Below are positions 1-8,451 of a stretch of 8,451 nucleotides of DNA, in pieces. The notes under the pieces were generated by a model. The model did not search any database and was not told where the DNA came from. It saw nothing but the letters and a program-made list of their open reading frames with translations. The DNA lies in NCBI GenBank assembly GCA_030141605.1, contig JAQGDQ010001870.1, forward strand, positions 14,426 through 22,876, written 5' to 3'. This stretch comes from Tubiluchus corallicola (lineage: Eukaryota > Animalia > Priapulida). The translations under genes and the position numbers were made by a program. The first letter of the stretch is position 1, and every line of letters starts with the position of its first letter.

Positions 1-570
1 AATAAACTCAAATACATTTGCAAAGACATATAAGCAAAGACGTATACATAATAAGTTAGTTGATGTGACACAGTGAGTAATATAACAGTTAAATAATAAC
101 AATAACTGTCTTGGAATTGACCATCAAAGGGAACTTAAGGCTTGTTCACATTAAAACGTTTAGTGCTCCTAATGTAATTAGTGAGGACTTTTATTCGTGC
201 TACATCACAAAAATGATAATATTTTAAATATAGGTGGCGCCACGTTAAAAACTCACGCGATGTAAACGAAAGTAAGTGTGAACCAGGCATTGGGTTTCAA
301 TTTCTTTTCTGGGATGGTGTTAGGTTTGTGGCATGGAAAGAACCCTTTGATTCAGGACAACACAACATCGATAGGATTTCTCCCCTGATTCGAAAGCACA
401 AATACGACAAGCGCGTAGAGTCAACAAAAAGCTTGTCACGTGACCTGCTGTTTATTTTTAATTAGGGGAGGCATGCAAATTACGGGAGGCCCCGTCTTTG
501 TAGCGTCTAGTTCCTCTGCTGCCGTAACACCTGTTGATGTTTCACGAGAAGAAATTATTGCGAATTAATG

Positions 571-584
571 TCATTCTTCGTTTC
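571..584 (-). CDS. Candidate terminal exon D coding part, arm 1 copy
   Basis: Reverse complement of 6004-6017; minus-strand AATAAA at 451-456 and 190-195. Confidence 0.35.
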
Positions 585-743
585 CTGTGAATGGAAACTC
601 GAATAACCGTATTTACTGTAGTATAAGTCGCTTTGCACGAATAAGACTTTCTACAGTTCTAGCGATTGATGGTGATCGTGAAAAGGTCATAGGTTAAGTG
701 CTGTTATAATGGAAACAGTTTTAACAGCTAGCTAGAACCTTAC

Positions 744-776
744 CTAGTTCATTTTTCCTTGTTCCCAAGCAAGATC
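744..776 (-). CDS. Putative micro-exon C, arm 1 copy: GSCLGTRKNEL
   Basis: Reverse complement of 5812-5844 with two substitutions (GGA/AGA replacement, AGG/AGA synonymous); splice sites intact. Confidence 0.55.
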   Translation of the reverse strand, partial: DLAWEQGKMN

Positions 777-1079
777 CTGCTAATAAATCACTCTACGCGT
801 AATGCGTAACTAAGTAAAGTCTACATAAAACAACCGAATTTACCGAAGTGACGCGGCAAACGGCTTTGCTTTATCTACATGTTACGTGACTATTGTAGTT
901 CAGACGCATGGCTGTGGTTCACTTAACATTTGACCTCGGCAACGAAAGTGTGAGAAGTCCTATTTACTGTAAAATACTTCTGCATTGATGCGTTTAGGAT
1001 TCAGGACCTTTTTACGAATTTTAGGAATTAAGAGTCACTGGATTGACTGCAGGCTAATAATGGAGGAAATAATCAACAG

Positions 1080-1183
1080 GCAAGGTATATAGCCGAGTGG
1101 TCACATTGATTTGTGAATGAGGCTGATCAGCGACTGGCAGACAGCATAACGACCTGGGTTCAACTCCTCACGTTGATTCTTGC
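1080..1183 (+). mobile_element. tRNA-like / SINE-head-like element with Pol III type-2 internal promoter
   Basis: A box TAGCCGAGTGG (1090-1100) and B box GGTTCAACTCC (1157-1167). The ends GCAAGG / TCTTGC can pair, but I could not build a convincing cloverleaf. Confidence 0.45.
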
Positions 1184-1406
1184 TGTTTACTTTGTTGAAG
1201 GGTAGCGAGTTCACGTACAAATGTAGTTAAAACTCATCTGCTGGTACAGTGGCTCATGTTTGGGTACTAGCTGTGTTAATAAGCTAGATTGCTGTCTTGC
1301 CTCAAACATTAATTCTGAGTAGGCCCTGCTGTTGAATACTGCATCAGGATTGCATGACTACTCGGGTAACAGATTTTGGAAATTTCATCTTGTAAATAGT
1401 TATTAC

Positions 1407-1499
1407 CTTTTAAATATGTGTCAATGGCGTCTCCATTCACATGTCGTGGGGTGTTCCAAAAATCTAATTGTTCCTGAACTATTTTCGTTAACTCTTCTC
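1407..1499 (-). CDS. Putative exon B, arm 1 copy
   Basis: Exact reverse complement of 5115-5207 with both splice sites intact. Confidence 0.7.
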
Positions 1500-1828
1500 C
1501 TGTAAATAGAAATTACACATCGGTCACGTGACTGACTGCGGTCATCTGTTTTAATATTGCGTGCGTTGATGCACATGCGCACAACAATACAATAAACATT
1601 GATAGGAACCTCAATGTAAAATTATAAATATCTGTTGATTAATTCTACAGTGTAATAACTGGAGCACAGTCCTATTCGGTTCTTTCTGGTTATGCTTCCA
1701 TTGTGGACAATAAAAATGAAGTTTCTTGACATTGTTACTGATGCAAGCTTTGTGCAAGATAGCAACCTTTTCATTTATATGCGACTGCTAACTAAACCAG
1801 AAATGGCTTCCATGTTAACAAGAAATCC

Positions 1829-1995
1829 ACAGCCGAGGCTGCGGCACTGCTGCAACTACCCAAATGTGTGGCTGCCTTATCAACAAATAAGATACAGCCG
1901 AGGCTGCAGCACTGCTGCAATTACCCAAATACGTAGCTGCCGTATCAACAAGGAAGGTACAGCCGAGGCTGCGGCACTGCTGCAACTAACCAAGT
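1829..1995. repeat. 65-bp minisatellite, ~2.5 copies
   Basis: acagccgaggctgc recurs at 1829, 1894 and 1959 (period 65). Confidence 0.95.
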
Positions 1996-2172
1996 GCGAA
2001 AGCCACAAATGTACTGCCTGAAAGCCACAAATGATCGTGAAAGTTTATTCATGTGTTTGGATGAAGGTTGTGCAATGTACATTTCTTGACCTTAAAGTGA
2101 ACCATATATCTTCTGGGCTTCATTCATATTTTATCAATTCATCTGACTCACCTGTAATTAGCGTTTACTTAC

Positions 2173-2256
2173 CCTGTAAATTTCCCTTTGACTCTGAATC
2201 TGTTTTATCGTCGTGTTTGAATAAATGTGACAAGGCAGACTTTGTCAGAGCTTCTC
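2173..2256 (-). CDS. Putative exon A, arm 1 copy
   Basis: Exact reverse complement of 4291-4374 with both splice sites intact. Confidence 0.7.
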
Positions 2257-2267
2257 CTGGAAAAAAA

Positions 2268-3306
2268 AAGAAAAGCGTTATCTTCTCCAACATCCATCAC
2301 AAGAAAAGCATTATTCTCTCCAACAAACGTTACAAAAAAGCATGATCCTTTCCAACATCCGTCACAAGAAAAGCATTATCCTCTCCAACATCCATCACAA
2401 GAAAAGCATTATCCTTTCCAACATCCATCACAGGAAAAGCATTATCCTTTCCAACAACCTTTGCAATAAAAACATCATCCTTTCCAACAACCTTTGTAAG
2501 AAAAGCATTATCCTTACCAACAACCTTTGCAAGAAAATCATCATCCTTTCCAACATCTGTCACAAGAAAACATTATCCTCTCCAACAACCGTCACAAGAA
2601 AAACATCCTCCTTTCCCCCATCCGTCACAAGAAAAACATCATCCTTTCCAACAACCCTCACAAGAAAAACATCATCCTTTCCAACAACCTTTGCAAGAAA
2701 AACATCATTCTTTCCAACAACCCTTGCAAGAAAAACATCATCCTTTCCAACAACCTTTGCAAGAAAAACATCATCATTCTCAACAACCTTTGCAAGAAAA
2801 ACATCACCCTTTCCAACAACCTTTGCAAGAAAAACATCATCATTCCCAACAACCTTTGCAAGAAAAACATCATCCTTTCCAACAACCTTTGCAAGAAAAA
2901 CATCATCATTCTCAACAACCTTTGCAAGAAAAACATCACCCTTTCCAACAACCTTTGCAAGAAAAACATCATCCTTTCCAACAACCTTTGCAAGAAAAAC
3001 ATCATCCCCAACAACCCAAAAAAACCCTTTCCAACAACCTTTGCAAGAAAAACATCATCCTTTCCAACAACCTTTGCAAGAAAAACATCATTCTTTCCAA
3101 CAACCTTTGCAAGAAAAACATCATTCTTTCCAACAACCTTTGCAAGAAAAACATCATTCTTTCCAACAACCTTTGCAAGAAAAACATCATTCTTTCCAAC
3201 AACCGTCATAAGAAAGCATCATTCTTTCCAACAACCGTCATAAGGAAAACATCATCCTTTCCAACAACCGTCATAAGAAAAGCATCATCCTTTCCAATAG
3301 CCGTCA
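2268..3306. repeat. 33-bp minisatellite, ~31 copies, consensus ccaacaacctttgcaagaaaaacatcatccttt
   Basis: Direct reading. The centre is homogeneous, the edge units are diverged, and there is a broken unit near 3005-3030. Confidence 0.98.
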
Positions 3307-3349
3307 CTGGTGCATCGACAGTAACAACAATTGTCACAGCAGTAGAAGC

Positions 3350-3436
3350 ATTCGACTAATTCTGATTACAAAAGAACATTTTGAATTCGATTAATTCTGA
3401 TTACAAAAGAACAGTTTGAATTTGGTTAACTCTGAC
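3350..3436. repeat. 35-bp tandem repeat, ~2.4 copies
   Basis: taattctgattacaaaagaaca at 3357 and 3392; partial taactctgac at 3427. Confidence 0.85.
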
Positions 3437-3748
3437 TTGTAATCACAGAGAGCAGCACTGTGAGGCCGAATTCTCAGCTAGACTTGGGCAGAGTGAACAT
3501 TCATTAATATTGACAATCGTTCTACATACCACAGGCAAGTGAATCGATATATGTATCATTAGCTCCTCATTTAAATTAGCTCTTATCTAAGTGCAAGTCT
3601 GGCAAGGTGGAACATTGCAGGTCTTGATTAGGTGCCAGGTAGAGAGGGGAGAGATTTAGATTTAACTTTATTTGAAACCGAAGGTTCATAGCGTAAAACA
3701 TTTACATATTTAAAACGAAACGAAAATACACAATAAATTAATAAGCGC

Positions 3749-4112
3749 AGACAGAGAGAGGAGAGAAAGAGAGAGATGGAGGGAGGGAGGGAGGTAGAGA
3801 TAGAGAGATGGAGGGAGGAAGTGAGGGAGAGAGAGAGTGAGAGGGGGAGAGAAAGAAAGGAAGAGAGAGAGAGAGATAGAAAGGGTGGAGGGAACGAGTG
3901 AGAGAGAGAAAAAGAGAGACGGGGGAGAGAAAGAGAGGAAGAGAGAGAGAGAGAGAAAGGGGGAAGGGAACGAGTGAGAGAGAGAGGGGGAGAGAAAGAG
4001 AGAGAGAGGGGGAGGGAGAGAGAGGGGGACGAAGAGAGAGAGAGAGAGAGAGCGAGGTAGAGAGAGAGAGGAAGAGAGAGAAATAGGGGAGGGAGAGGAG
4101 GAAAAGAGAGAG
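3749..4112 (+). repeat. Imperfect (GA)n polypurine microsatellite, ~360 bp
   Basis: Almost exclusively G/A, with an internal duplicated motif gggaacgagtgagagagaga near 3890 and 3967. Confidence 0.97.
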
Positions 4113-4114
4113 TG

Positions 4115-4280
4115 TGTGATGGATGTTGGAAAGGATAATGCTTTTCTTGTGATGGATGTTGGAGAGGATAATGCTTTTCTTGTGACGGATGTTGGAAAGG
4201 ATCATGCTTTTTTGTAACGTTTGTTGGAGAGAATAATGCTTTTCTTGTGATGGATGTTGGAGAAGATAACGCTTTTCTTT
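4115..4280. repeat. Truncated inverted copy of the 33-bp minisatellite (~5 units)
   Basis: tgtgatggatgttggaaaggataatgcttttct units, reverse complement of ~2268-2432. Confidence 0.95.
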
Positions 4281-4290
4281 TTTTTTCCAG

Positions 4291-4374
4291 GAGAAGCTCT
4301 GACAAAGTCTGCCTTGTCACATTTATTCAAACACGACGATAAAACAGATTCAGAGTCAAAGGGAAATTTACAGG
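4291..4374 (+). CDS. Putative internal coding exon A (84 nt, phase 1-1): (G)EALTKSALSHLFKHDDKTDSESKGNLQ; protein unknown
   Basis: Strong acceptor (long T-rich tract ending ttccag|GA) and consensus donor CAGG|gtaagt. Length is divisible by 3, it is open in phase 1, and it is identical in both arms. Confidence 0.7.
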
Positions 4375-4552
4375 GTAAGTAAACGCTAATTACAGGTGAG
4401 TCAGATGAATTGATAAAATATGAATGAAGCCCAGAAGATATATGGTTCACTTTAAGGTCAAGAAATGTACATCGCACAACCTTCATCCAAACACATGAAT
4501 AAACTTTCACGATCATTTGTGGCTTTCTGGCAGTACATTTGTGGCTTTCGCA

Positions 4553-4783
4553 CTTGGTTAGTTGCAGCAGTGCCGCAGCCTCGGCTGTACCTTCCTTGTT
4601 GATACGACAGCTACGTATTTGGGTAATTGCAGCAGTGCTGCAGCCTCGGCTGTATCTTATTTGTTGATAAGGCAGCCACACATTTGGGTAGTTGCAGCAG
4701 TGTTGCAGCCTCAGCTTTATCTTATTTGTTGATACGACAGCCACACATTTGGGTAGTTGCAGCAGTGCTGCAGCCTCGGCCGT
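4553..4783. repeat. 65-bp minisatellite, ~3.5 copies (arm 2)
   Basis: (g/a)ttgcagcagtg recurs at 4561, 4626, 4691 and 4756. Confidence 0.95.
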
Positions 4784-5114
4784 GGATTTCTTGTTAACAT
4801 GGAAGCCATTTCTGGTTTAGTTAGCAGTCCAATATAAATGAAAAGGTTGCTATCTTGCACAAAGCTTGTTCATCAGTAACAATGTCAAGGAACGTCATTT
4901 TTATTGTCCACAATGGAAGCATAACCAGAAAGAACCGAATAGGACTGTGCACTAGTTATTACACTGTAAAATTAATCAACAGTTAATTATAATTTTACAT
5001 TGAGGTTCCTATCAATGTTCGTTGTATTGTTGTGCGCATGTGCATCAACGCACGCAATATTAAAACAGATGACCGCAGTCAGTCACGTGACCGATGTGTA
5101 ATTTCCATTTACAG

Positions 5115-5207
5115 GAGAAGAGTTAACGAAAATAGTTCAGGAACAATTAGATTTTTGGAACACCCCACGACATGTGAATGGAGACGCCATTGACACATAT
5201 TTAAAAG
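5115..5207 (+). CDS. Putative internal coding exon B (93 nt, phase 1-1): GEELTKIVQEQLDFWNTPRHVNGDAIDTYLK
   Basis: Acceptor atttccatttacag|GA and donor AAAAG|gtaata. Length is 3n and it is open in phase 1. It begins GExLTK like exon A and is identical in both arms. Confidence 0.7.
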
Positions 5208-5438
5208 GTAATAACTATTTACAAGATGAAATTTCCAAAATCTGTTACCTGAGGGCGCCAGTAGTCATGCAATCCTGATGCAGTATTCAACAGCAGGGCC
5301 TACTCAGAATTAATGTTTGAGGCAAGACAGCAATTTAGCTTATTAACACAGCTAGTACCCAAAGATGAGCCACTGCACCAGCAGATGAGTTTTAACTACA
5401 TTTGTATGCGAACTCGCTACCCTTCAACAAAGTAAACA

Positions 5439-5542
5439 GCAAGAATCAACGTGAGGAGTTGAACCCAGGTCGTTATGCTGTCTGCCAGTCGCTGATCAGC
5501 CTCATTCACAAATCAATGTGACCACTCGGCTATATACCTTGC
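5439..5542 (-). mobile_element. tRNA-like / SINE-head-like element, arm 2 copy
   Basis: Reverse complement of 1080-1183; A box 5522-5532, B box 5455-5465. Confidence 0.45.
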
Positions 5543-5811
5543 CTGTTGATTATTGATCCAGTGACTCTTAATTCCTAAAGTTACTAATAGGTCCTGAATC
5601 CTAAACGCATCAATGCAGAAGTATTTTACAGTAAATAGGACCTTGTTATCGAGGTCAAAGGTTAAGTGAACCACAGCCATGCGTCTGAACTACAATAGTC
5701 ACGTGACATGTAGATAAAGCAAAGCCGTTTGCCGCGTCACTTCGGTAAATTCGGTTGTTTTATGTAGACTTTACTTAGTTACGCATTACGCGTAGAGTGA
5801 TTTATTAGCAG

Positions 5812-5844
5812 GATCTTGCTTGAGAACAAGAAAAAATGAACTAG
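5812..5844 (+). CDS. Putative micro-exon C (33 nt, phase 1-1): GSCLRTRKNEL
   Basis: Acceptor ttattagcag|GA (weak pyrimidine tract) and strong donor CTAG|gtaagg. Length is 3n. It lies in the best-conserved block shared with the diverged third copy at 7332-7364. Confidence 0.55.
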
Positions 5845-6003
5845 GTAAGGTTCTAGCTAGCTGTTAAAACTGTTTCCATTATAACAGCACTTAACCTATG
5901 ACCCTTTCACGATCACCATCAATCGCTAGAACTGTAGAAAGTCATATTCGTGCAAAGCGACTTATACTACAGTAAATACGGTTATTCGAGTTTCCATTCA
6001 CAG

Positions 6004-6017
6004 GAAACGAAGAATGA
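6004..6017 (+). CDS. Coding part of candidate terminal exon D: GNEE*
   Basis: Acceptor tttccattcacag|GA closely resembles the exon B acceptor. Phase 1 gives TGA at 6015-6017, and AATAAA follows at 6132-6137 and 6406-6411. Confidence 0.35.
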
Positions 6018-6661
6018 CATTAATTCGCAATAATTTCTTCTCGTGAAACATCAGCAGGTGTTACGGCAGCAGAGGAACTAGACGCTACAAAGACGGGGCC
6101 TCCCGTAATTTGCATGCCTCCCCTAATTAAAAATAAACAGCAGGTCACGTGACAAGCTTTTTGTTGACTCTGCGCGCTTGTCGTATTTGTGCTTTCGAAT
6201 CAGGGGAGAAATCCTATCGATGTTGTGTTGTCCTGAATCAAAGGGTTCTTTCCATCCCACAAACCTAACACCAGAAAAGAAACTGAAACCCGATCCCCTG
6301 GTTCACACTTACTTTTGCTGACCTGTAAGTTCATTTACATCGCGTGCGTTTTTAACGTGGCGCCACCTATGATTAAAATTTCATCATTTTTTGTGATGTA
6401 GCACGAATAAAAGTCCTCACTAATTATATTAGGAGCACAAAACGTTTTAATGTGAACAAGCCTTAAGTTCCCTTTGATGGTCAATTCCAAGACAGTTATT
6501 GTTATTATTTAACTGTTATATTACTCACTGTGTCACATCAACTAACTTATTATGTATACGTCTTTGCTTATATGTCTTTGCAAATGTATTTGAGTTTATT
6601 TCAATTTATATTTATTTTCTCTACACTTCTGTCTGTACATGCAAATCTATTTGAGTTTATT

Positions 6662-6840
6662 TCTCTCTCTCTTTGTCCCGCTCTCTCTCTCTCCCCTTTC
6701 TCTGTTTCTTTTTCTCTAGCTCTTTTCTGTTTCTCTTATATACTCGCCTCTTAACCTGACTACTTTTTTCTTCCATTTCTTTACCCCCCCTTTTGTTTCC
6801 TTTTTTAGTGTTTCTTTTCTTCTTCTTCTTCCTTTCCATT
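6662..6840 (+). repeat. Imperfect (CT)n polypyrimidine tract
   Basis: C/T-rich low-complexity sequence starting where arm 2 homology ends. Confidence 0.9.
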
Positions 6841-7166
6841 GTTTCACTTTATTTAACAGTTCTCTATGTTTTACGCTTTCCTTGGTTCAACTTAAGCCTG
6901 ACCTCCTCTTCCTTGAGGCGTCTCTTTTTTAGTTTATGACGCAGCAGAGTATCTCCGTCTTAATAATTAATCACCACTTAATGACTAACGTTTGTGGATT
7001 TATCACTAATTCATGCAAAAGGTGCAATCTTGAATTGTGCAGAGCGCAACGTGATAGGATAATTGAAATGTATGTTTGACATGCAGTGTTTCTGATTATT
7101 CTTTGCTGGTTGAGCTGTTTGAATTAGCCTTTTCACAGTTTCTTTGTGCGCATGCGCAGTTGCGAT

Positions 7167-7518
7167 AGGTCAAAGGTTAAGTGTAGCACAGCAGTGCGTC
7201 TTATCTACAACAATTGCATGACGTGTTGGTAAAGTAAAGCCGTCTGCGGCATCAGTTCAGTAACTTCTTTTGTTTTACGTGCAGTTTACTTAATTATGCA
7301 TTAGTCTCTGCATAGAGTGATTTACTAGCAGGATCTTGCTTGGGAACAAGAAAAAATGAACTAGGTAAGGTTCTAGCTAACTGTTAAAACTGTTACTATT
7401 ACAATAGCATGGGATGCGAGGCGTTGCCAAGTGTACACAAATGCGTTGTCTGGTACACTTAACCTTTGACCTTTTCACGATCATCATCAATCGGATGAAA
7501 CTGTGAAAAGGCTTATTC
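7167..7518 (+). repeat. Diverged direct copy of ~5652-5949 (exon C module) with a ~44-bp insertion near 7410-7455
   Basis: Collinear motifs aggtcaaaggttaagtg, aaagccgt, agagtgattta, exon C, ctgttaaaactgtt, cacttaacct and ttcacgatca. Confidence 0.9.
7332..7364 (+). CDS. Third copy of micro-exon C (C'): GSCLGTRKNEL
   Basis: ctagcag|GATCTTGCTTGGGAACAAGAAAAAATGAACTAG|gtaagg. It differs by one base from each arm copy, while the more distant flanks are visibly diverged. Confidence 0.5.
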   Translation, partial: DLAWEQEKMN

Positions 7519-7590
7519 TCAACACAGTGACGCTCTTGGCCGATCTTTTACGACTTTAGTGATATGGGGCGTGGATACTAGTTTTGACAG

Positions 7591-7664
7591 GCGATAATTT
7601 CACCGGAAACCATTTTAGTCGCATCCTGTACTCATCACATTGTGATCAGAAGAAACTGTGTTGA
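7591..7664 (+). CDS. Possible alternative terminal exon after C': GDNFTGNHFSRILYSSHCDQKKLC*
   Basis: Acceptor gttttgacag|GC, open in phase 1 for 24 codons to TGA. There is no independent support. Confidence 0.2.
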
Positions 7665-7826
7665 ATGACCGAGTGTTTTAGATTTCGCGCAGTCTTGAGT
7701 TCAAATGTACAGCGTTACTGCCGACGCATGCCCTGCATGCATAAAGGCAGTAGGCGAGTGGTATAAAGTTTCAAGACGAATTTTGTAAGCTTTTTGCAAT
7801 TGGTGAGTTTTCTTGTGCTTTAAAAA

Positions 7827-7949
7827 TAGTTTATTTGGTTCAGATTAGACAGTTTTTAAAACTGAAAACATGAATCCTCACCATGCAAATATATGTACAA
7901 GCAGAAGTGTAGAAAAAATAAATAGAAATTGAAATAAACTTAAATAGAT
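7827..7949 (+). repeat. ~120-bp direct duplication of 8224-8346, including one 61-bp-family unit
   Basis: tagtttatttggttcagattagacagtttttaaaactga...catgcaaatatatgtaca...aaatagat versus tagttcatttggtttcgattaggcagttttttaaaactga...catgcaaatatatgtaca...aaatagat. Confidence 0.9.
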
Positions 7950-8289
7950 ATACATAGATACAATTACATATAAACATTCATCTCTCTGCCTCTTCCTCTG
8001 CGTCTGTACCAGCTTCTTTATTGAAATCTCTGCTAAAAAAGTAGGTGATCCTAGCTAGTCTTGATGAAGTTGATAATTAACTCAGTTCTGTGTAATTTAT
8101 TTCTTCGTACAGTCACTCTGTGGAACAAGGAATGATATTTGGCTGAGAGAGTGCAGAAAATGAGCGAATGAACGAATGAAGAATTAATCGAAGAGACGAA
8201 CGAGGACGTAATTAGTCTAAATCTAGTTCATTTGGTTTCGATTAGGCAGTTTTTTAAAACTGATACACGAATCTTCGCCATGCAAATAT

Positions 8290-8451
8290 ATGTACAGGCA
8301 GAAGTGTAGAAAAAATAAATATAAATTGAAATAAACTCAAATAGATTTGCATGTACAGACAGAAGTGTAGAAAAAATAAATATAAATTGAAATAAACTCA
8401 AATAGATTTGCATGTACAGACAGAAGTGTAGAAAAAATAAACATAAATTGA
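8290..8451 (+). repeat. 61-bp minisatellite running off the right end and continuing in register at position 1
   Basis: aataaactca begins at 8330 and 8391; the next unit is due at 8452, which equals position 1 (aataaactcaaatacatttgca). Confidence 0.95.

What the first reader, a model, noticed from the sequence alone, without database searches (positions are those of the whole stretch)
1..8451. Window closes into an 8451-bp circle with a four-part IR / single-copy / IR / single-copy layout
Seen: the end (...acataaattga) joins the start (aataaactca...) in exact 61-bp register with no terminal overlap. The joined sequence 8389-8451 plus 1-2432 is the reverse complement of 4115-6663. This gives two ~2.5 kb inverted arms separated by near-equal single-copy regions (2433-4114, 1682 bp; 6664-8388, 1725 bp). 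Established: plastid genomes and the yeast 2-micron plasmid have this topology and flip between isomers by IR recombination. Inference: this could be a non-autonomous extrachromosomal circle (eccDNA, amplicon or segment) carrying spliceosomal exons but no replicase or recombinase. It could equally be a collapsed tandem unit, or a contig circularised by the assembler through the 61-bp repeat.
Basis: partly seen in the sequence, partly recalled or inferred. Interest (0 to 1): 0.85.

Follow-up and report, generated by a model that had tools for sequence, protein, structure and literature searches.

The report
Two alleles folded into false circle
The inverted repeat is in the sequence, but its two arms likely are the two alleles of one ordinary chromosomal locus that a library chimera or the assembler joined head-to-head into a circle, so this is probably not a plasmid-like element.

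Summary
The layout is there: 8389-8451 plus 1-2432 is the reverse complement of 4115-6663. The arms are not homogenised: 52 substitutions and 11 indels. The DNA is nuclear and eukaryotic, with a high-copy MITE-like repeat and candidate GT-AG exons, and no replicase or recombinase.

Contigs from public runs argue against a circle as the main form. Each arm version has about 90x depth (together 180x), while the 'single-copy' spacers have 143-170x. The spacer/arm ratio is at least 0.85, against 0.50 expected for a circle and 1.0 for two alleles. Both spacers occur in a second version, and one contig carries spacer 2 on into a CT tract instead of the arm.

Most likely: two fold-back joins plus both haplotypes, assembled into a cycle (0.62). 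Main rival: a real chromosomal inverted triplication collapsed to a circle (0.22). No long reads were available, so this is not closed.

The parts
1..2432 (+). Arm A (continues from 8389-8451); likely allele 1 of the locus
   Evidence: A-only contig 184-362 at 92x in X1
4115..6663 (-). Arm B, inverted; likely allele 2 of the same locus
   Evidence: B-only contig 6226-6417 at 89x in X1
8389..8451 (+). Start of arm A across the closure, inside the 61-bp array
2433..4114 (.). Spacer 1: rest of 33-bp minisatellite, unique DNA, GA tract; natural continuation of arm A
   Evidence: X1 contig 3175-3748 at 143x with 5 other letters
6664..8388 (.). Spacer 2: CT tract, unique DNA, MITE-like element, mid-copy repeat; natural upstream of arm A
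   Evidence: X1 contigs 6662-7155 at 147x and 7471-7872 at 170x
4114..4115 (.). Join J1: GA tract to inverted arm, inside the 33-bp array; fold-back-type join skipping 1682 bp
   Evidence: sequence; not testable, the tool skips 3749-4086
6661..6664 (.). Join J2: arm B, cut inside a 61-bp unit, to the CT tract; at least 2 bp shared by both sides
   Evidence: no bridging contig listed, contigs from both sides go on into other sequence
8290..8451 (+). 61-bp tandem array (2.7 copies) at the closure
2268..3297 (+). 33-bp minisatellite, 31.7 copies (5 copies inverted at 4115-4279)
3749..4081 (+). GA-rich tract before J1
7121..7518 (.). MITE-like high-copy nuclear repeat with 22-bp terminal inverted repeats (21 of 22 match)
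   Evidence: summed depth about 1.2 million in bin 7333-7614 in X1
699..936 (-). Diverged copy of the MITE-like element in arm A (81%)
5652..5889 (+). Diverged copy of the MITE-like element in arm B (82%)
4291..4374 (+). Candidate internal exon, 84 nt, phase 1-1 (mirror 2256-2173 on minus)
   Evidence: best splice-site pair in a simple scan, open frame; identical in both arms
5115..5207 (+). Candidate internal exon, 93 nt, phase 1-1
   Evidence: acceptor score 6.0, donor 2.5, open frame; identical in both arms
6004..6137 (+). Candidate last exon: in-phase stop after three codons, AATAAA at 6132

Best explanation
The window is likely an artificial cycle built from one ordinary heterozygous nuclear locus, whose inferred true order is CT tract, spacer 2, arm, spacer 1, GA tract. 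Shown: the arms differ by about 2% plus indels; each version has half the summed arm depth; the spacers have close to the full depth and exist in second versions; spacer 2 continues into non-arm sequence in a deep contig. Inferred: arm A and arm B are the two alleles. Inferred mechanism: a strand being copied (amplified library or fold-back read) turned back at the GA tract and restarted 1.7 kb upstream on the opposite strand (J1); another did so at the CT end (J2). With the true onward paths weak at the GA/CT tracts, the assembler walked spacer 2, arm allele 1, spacer 1, J1, arm allele 2 backwards, J2, and closed the loop, using one shared consensus at the two arm ends. It has no function as a circle; the DNA is the 3' part of an unidentified host gene.
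For: Depth: X1 arm total 180+-12 from 7 contigs, A-only 92x, B-only 89x; spacers 143, 147, 170x raw; ratio at least 0.85 (X1), 0.86 (X2), 1.01 (X4) versus 0.50 circle, 0.75 triplication, 1.00 alleles. Second versions of the spacers: 3497, 3522, 3565, 3569 in X1 with the window letter at 3565 in X2 at 4.4x; 2-bp gap at 6925 in X2. At 6478 both window arms have T, yet X1 has T 81.8x and G 89.5x; 6528 also varies; X3 lacks 2 T at 4278 and an X2 contig starts at 4280, so the arm ends are identical in the window where the sample has two versions. The 358-bp difference-free arm end is unlikely under uniform scatter (P 7e-5 by events, 0.003 by clusters). J2 unsupported: 535-nt X1 contig runs 41 letters past 6662 in other sequence; X1, X2, X3 contigs run past 6663 into another 61-bp unit. 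Inverted joins with a deletion under 10 kb and 2-21 nt complementarity are the main MDA chimera (PMC1855051, passages). Short circular contigs made largely of repeats are a described long-read assembly error (10.1101/2025.04.22.649783, section 9). HiFi coverage drops at GA-rich DNA (PMC9186530, passages).
Against: No long reads and no assembler or library record were available. Two fold-backs at one locus from opposite haplotypes is a demanding coincidence, and fold-back chimeras are mostly intramolecular, so they alone give identical arms. The ratio 0.85 lies between the triplication (0.75) and allele (1.0) values; adding the left-out X1 contig 6397-6469 (120x) or X2 contig 2383-2706 (6.0x) would lower it to about 0.82 and 0.76 (my arithmetic). 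Logan contigs are simplified with SPAdes-like heuristics, so a true short join beside deep repeat nodes could be dropped; only 30 of 836 pieces were listed. J1 was not tested. Arms differ at 8433/6619 and 8442/6610 right beside J2, which needs a 61-bp register slip at closure. The 358-bp gap is not significant if any position is allowed and events are clustered (P 0.096). One MDA-HiFi study found few chimeric contigs (PMC11660948, passages).
Confidence: 0.62

Rival explanations
1. Real chromosomal inverted triplication (DUP-TRP/INV-DUP, ODIRA type): flank, spacer 2, arm, spacer 1, J1, inverted arm, J2, spacer 2, arm, spacer 1, flank. The 5.9-kb direct repeat was collapsed by the assembler into this circle. 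J1 and J2 are true template-switch junctions; the circle is still not a free molecule.
For: Gives the window exactly, without chimeric reads. Natural fold-back joins have spacers of 766-70,466 bp (median 3,428) and 2-8 bp microhomology (PMC3907307, passages); here 1682 and 1725 bp. A circle from one homologue inserted into the other gives mixed alleles (PMC10766183, passages) and would explain the identical arm ends. X1 contigs in spacer 1 and 7471-7872 carry non-window letters, as a 2:1 majority would. Predicted ratio 0.75 is near the raw 0.85.
Against: Raw spacer depths are lower bounds and already exceed 0.75 in 3 of 3 runs. A:B of 92:89 and T:G of 82:90 need the other homologue to match one parental type exactly. 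J2 is not seen in X1, X2 or X3. X1 contig 6662-7155 has no non-window letter. In human cases the inverted copy came from the same chromosome in nine tested.
Confidence: 0.22
2. Rare real extrachromosomal circle: an inverted-dimer circle made by template switches at two diverging forks, later recombined with the homologue so that it holds both alleles, present in a few cells and captured by long reads.
For: Topology matches the ODIRA inverted dimeric circle (PMC10766183, passages). A rare form would leave bulk depth diploid and its joins would be dropped from contigs, as seen.
Against: ODIRA joins use inverted repeats within about 100 bp, not 1.7 kb apart; a fresh circle has identical arms; that study did not capture the circular route. 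No positive evidence here for a free circle.
Confidence: 0.1
3. Abundant or self-standing circle, or a long tandem array of the 8451-bp unit, with plastid- or 2-micron-like flip isomers.
For: Four-part layout and seamless closure.
Against: Predicts spacer/arm ratio 0.50; observed at least 0.85. Arms not homogenised. No family above a Pfam cut-off in 11 of 11 frames scanned, no Rfam match or tRNA. Spacer 2 runs into other sequence. Contains host high-copy repeats.
Confidence: 0.03

Closest known systems
Repeat-rich short circular contigs from long-read assemblers (10.1101/2025.04.22.649783; passages and section 9 read)
   Same: Circular contig under 50 kb, long internal repeat (2.5 kb, 92% by BLAST, inside the reported 600-4,000 bp and 88-96% ranges), variable haplotypes concatenated.
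   Different: That paper treats microbial metagenomes; here the source looks like a diploid eukaryotic locus. The long repeat alone covers 60% of the window (their cut-off 70%). The assembler used here is unknown.
MDA inverted chimeras with intervening deletion (PMC1855051, passages) and long-read foldback artefacts (PMC12338684, search listing and start of abstract only)
   Same: Inverted join skipping under 10 kb, short microhomology.
   Different: Those are intramolecular and give identical arms; here the arm middles are two versions, so two molecules or a graph walk are needed.
ODIRA inverted dimeric circle and inverted triplication (PMC10766183, passages); human fold-back inverted duplications (PMC3907307, passages)
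   Same: Two inverted copies joined by two spacers; spacer size fits the human fold-back range.
   Different: ODIRA loops are about 100 bp and need an origin (untested); arms here differ by 2%; depth fits two alleles better than a triplication.
Plastid quadripartite genome and yeast 2-micron plasmid (features recalled, from no call)
   Same: IR / single copy / IR / single copy topology only.
   Different: No organellar genes, no Flp or Rep genes, arms diverged, not amplified, nuclear repeats and candidate spliceosomal exons.

Membership tests
2-micron-type plasmid / plastid-like IR circle | Inverted repeats kept identical by recombination | tested here: not met
   52 substitutions, 11 indels
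2-micron-type plasmid / plastid-like IR circle | Own recombinase, partition or organellar genes | tested here: not met
   0 of 11 frames reach a Pfam cut-off (11 of 61 listed ORFs and exon frames were scanned, chosen as the longest or most gene-like); no Rfam match, no tRNA
2-micron-type plasmid / plastid-like IR circle | Repeat at twice the depth of the single-copy parts | tested here: not met
   spacer/arm-total at least 0.85, expected 0.50
2-micron-type plasmid / plastid-like IR circle | Both flip isomers present | not testable with these tools
   needs reads spanning a 2.5-kb arm
eccDNA | Sequence derives from a chromosomal locus | tested here: met
   host high-copy repeat, second versions, continuation past 6662
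eccDNA | Circle-specific junctions in independent molecules | tested here: inconclusive
   J2 not in listed contigs of X1, X2, X3, but contigs drop rare forms; J1 skipped
eccDNA | Exonuclease-resistant circular molecule | not testable with these tools
   bench test
ODIRA / inverted triplication | Two inversion junctions flanking an inverted centre copy | tested here: inconclusive
   present in the window, not confirmed in runs
ODIRA / inverted triplication | Arm 4 copies to spacer 3 copies in a heterozygote | tested here: inconclusive
   raw ratio 0.85, 0.86, 1.01 versus 0.75; noisy
ODIRA / inverted triplication | Closely spaced short inverted repeats at the junctions | tested here: not met
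   skipped stretches are 1682 and 1725 bp
Assembly or library artefact from a heterozygous locus | Duplicated parts at half depth each, flanks at full depth | tested here: met
   92x and 89x versus 143-170x
Assembly or library artefact from a heterozygous locus | Reads clip at the false joins and go on elsewhere | tested here: inconclusive
   seen for contigs at 6662 and 6663; raw long reads not available; J1 untested

The most novel reading that the evidence does not exclude
A naturally occurring inverted-dimer circle (or its integrated inverted triplication) in a non-model eukaryote, made by two long-loop template switches at GA/CT tracts and carrying both parental alleles of the arm: a captured ODIRA-type intermediate showing inter-homologue exchange, which the yeast study did not catch by the circular route.
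Probability: 0.1. Interest if true: 0.6.

Novelty: not a real feature. Interest (0 to 1): 0.14.

Why it matters
Under the best reading it matters only as a warning: a seamless, plasmid-like four-part circle can be produced from a heterozygous host locus, and collections of circular contigs will hold such items; comparing arm-version depth with spacer depth exposes them. If the joins prove real, it is a small inverted triplication or a rare inverted-dimer circle with alleles from both homologues, which would be a natural test case for template-switch models of inverted amplification.

Tried and rejected
No whole genome is held, so flanks could not be read. Rfam (0 matches), tRNA scan (0), Pfam on 11 frames (only weak matches below cut-off on repeat-derived frames). 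Homologue searches with the second candidate exon: viral contigs none confirmed of 22 pattern hits; protein search 0 of 8 candidates; PDB 0; Atlas only unnamed short peptides at low recognition; phmmer on 1.84 billion proteins gave 2 hits with 0 significant stretches, both tandem-repeat proteins whose score is summed over repeats, rejected. DNA pattern scans: metagenome contigs 0 and 0, viral contigs 0. No RNA holder listed; X6 (RNA is a guess) covered only the CT tract: no evidence either way on expression. Earlier findings: nothing by place, sequence or first word search. Rejected: the long frames over the 33-bp array as genes (all frames open only because 33 is a multiple of 3, with frame breaks; the array abuts a strong acceptor on the other strand); a simple heterozygous inversion (its joins would link the end of spacer 2 to the 33-bp end of the arm, which is not the window's order); a triplication with no homologous copy or fixed on both homologues (cannot give 1:1 arm versions); turn-around inside the minisatellite (spacer 1 is read through before the turn). 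A search for a like case in print (eccDNA, long-read, inverted, both haplotypes, invertebrate; 10 of 32 listed) showed none; that one search is not proof of absence.
Full report
Observation. With the window rotated across its end, 8389-8451 plus 1-2432 aligns to the reverse strand of 4115-6663 over 2588 columns. A global alignment gives 2404 matches, 52 substitutions (32 transitions) and 11 indels, one of them an extra 65-bp unit. The end carries 2.7 copies of a 61-bp unit and the start continues it in register. The arms are thus about 98% alike with a natural, transition-rich pattern: not sequencing error and not a homogenised repeat.

What kind of DNA. No whole genome is held. There is no Rfam match, no tRNA and no Pfam family above its cut-off in 11 of 11 frames scanned. 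7121-7518 is bounded by 22-bp inverted repeats matching at 21 positions and collects a summed contig depth of about 1.2 million in run X1 against about 150 for unique parts (summed depth is not a copy number, but over 100 contigs carry each common variant). Diverged copies lie in both arms. I read it as a MITE-like nuclear repeat (label from my own knowledge). A simple splice-site scan finds two open phase 1-1 candidate exons (4291-4374, 5115-5207) and a candidate last exon from 6004 with an in-phase stop after three codons and AATAAA at 6132. Both internal exons are identical in the two arms. No homologue was found and there is no RNA evidence. So this is most likely the 3' part of an unidentified gene in a eukaryotic, probably animal, nuclear genome (inference).

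Depth. Four runs hold the sequence, three from one sample; all are contigs, and the best holder may be the window's own source. In X1 the A-only contig 184-362 has 92x and the B-only contig 6226-6417 has 89x; contigs shared by the arms have 135-170x. Correcting for 31-mers that differ between versions, the arms total 180+-12 over 7 contigs, while three spacer contigs have 143, 147 and 170x uncorrected. Spacer over arm total is at least 0.85 in X1, 0.86 in X2 and 1.01 in X4. A circle or long tandem array as the only form predicts 0.50, an inverted triplication with a normal homologue 0.75, two alleles of one locus 1.00. Rows left out: X1 6397-6469 (120x, in a multi-copy stretch), 6418-6477 (2.6x), 6602-6663 (263x, 61-bp array); X2 2383-2706 (6.0x, minisatellite, 3 other letters and 3 gaps); X4 7875-8111 and 8145-8258 (mid-copy repeat); all of X3 (uneven, 4-35x). 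Adding the first X1 row or the X2 row would lower the ratios to about 0.82 and 0.76 (my arithmetic). The tables list only 32 of 47,065 and 30 of 836 pieces. The depth therefore rejects the abundant circle firmly and favours alleles over a triplication only moderately.

Second versions. Spacer 1 differs from the window at 3497, 3522, 3565 and 3569 in X1, while X2 has the window's letter at 3565 at 4.4x; spacer 2 has a 2-bp gap at 6925 in X2. At 6478, where both window arms read T, X1 has T at 81.8x and G at 89.5x; 6528 also varies; X3 lacks two T at 4278 and an X2 contig starts at 4280, where a shorter T run would branch. So the sample has two arm versions right to the arm ends, yet the window's arms are identical over 358 bp at one end and 170 bp near the other. 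The terminal 358-bp gap has P 7e-5 (63 events) or 0.003 (39 clusters) under uniform scatter, but P 0.096 if any position is allowed with clusters. This is what a graph walk through shared nodes gives; gene conversion or an integration crossover could give it too.

Joins. Contigs in X1 (6479-6616, 135x) and X2 (6388-6616, with A-type letters) cross the place equal to window position 1 into the 61-bp unit unbroken, so 8451|1 is probably normal chromosomal adjacency, give or take a unit. At 6663|6664 no bridging piece is listed: the 535-nt X1 contig of spacer 2 runs 41 letters past 6662 in other, CT-rich sequence, and contigs in X1, X2 and X3 run past 6663 into another 61-bp unit. The first fact is positive evidence that spacer 2 exists outside the circle. 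The absence of J2 is weak evidence, because these contigs are simplified with SPAdes-like heuristics (10.1101/2024.07.30.605881, passages) and the tool warns that contigs show presence, not absence. 4114|4115 could not be tested: the tool skips the GA tract. Arm B is cut inside a minisatellite at both ends and abuts a GA tract on one side and a CT tract on the other, whereas arm A runs naturally into both of its arrays.

Mechanism. The simplest account is one diploid locus, CT tract, spacer 2, arm, spacer 1, GA tract, with two fold-back joins that skip 1682 and 1725 bp. Inverted joins with a deletion under 10 kb and 2-21 nt of complementarity are the main chimera of multiple displacement amplification (PMC1855051, passages); foldback artefacts are also reported for long reads (PMC12338684, listing only). 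HiFi coverage fails at GA-rich DNA (PMC9186530, passages), which would weaken the true onward paths at just these places. Long-read assemblers report many short circular contigs made largely of repeats and can concatenate haplotype-specific regions (10.1101/2025.04.22.649783, passages and section 9). All of these steps are inferred; library and assembler are unknown. Against: two chimeras from opposite haplotypes must meet, and one MDA-HiFi study found few chimeric contigs (PMC11660948, passages). Confidence 0.62.

Rivals. A real inverted triplication on one chromosome would collapse into exactly this circle through its 5.9-kb direct repeat; natural fold-back joins have spacers of this size (PMC3907307, passages) and a circle from one homologue can insert into the other (PMC10766183, passages). 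It predicts a ratio of 0.75 and J2 at about a quarter of arm depth; 0.22. A rare real inverted-dimer circle fits the bulk data but has no positive support; 0.10. An abundant plastid- or 2-micron-like circle or long array, 0.03.

Verdict. The inverted repeat is real in the contig; the circle as a biological element most likely is not. It shares only topology with plastid genomes and the 2-micron plasmid and fails the three membership features that could be tested. Interest 0.14; if the joins are real and both alleles sit on one circle, about 0.6. Supplements of the cited papers were not read.

Noticed in passing
window 7121-7518: MITE-like element with 22-bp terminal inverted repeats and an inner inverted pair near 7148-7165 / 7455-7472; very high copy in the holding runs; not found in viral or metagenome contig scans.
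   Followed up: partly
window 4291-4374, 5115-5207, 6004-6137 (and mirrors in arm A): Candidate 3' exons of an unidentified gene; no homologue found; no start of the gene evident in the window.
   Followed up: partly
window 3449-3534: Open frame ending at a good GC-type donor (score 5.8) upstream of arm B; may be a further exon, but on the strand opposite to the gene as it would lie in the inferred true locus.
   Followed up: no
window 7821-7955 and 8218-8352: 397-bp-period duplication (85-87%) that contains the 61-bp unit; depth suggests a mid-copy dispersed repeat family over about 7800-8451.
   Followed up: no
window about 7620-7800 and 6400-6550: Two further dispersed repeats by depth (about 80,000 and about 1,700 in X1), not characterised.
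   Followed up: no
window 1817-1993 and 4554-4780: 65-bp minisatellite with 2.7 versus 3.5 copies in the two arms: a length polymorphism usable to phase the alleles.
   Followed up: partly
run X3 (sample S2): A second sample holds exact A-only (203-443) and B-only (5278-5428) pieces: either the same genotype or a sign that A and B are both common or linked; this slightly favours the paralogue reading if S2 is unrelated.
   Followed up: no
P0001: A library 'protein' made of about 14 exact 59-aa repeats; looks like a translated artificial concatemer and gives spurious phmmer hits.
   Followed up: no
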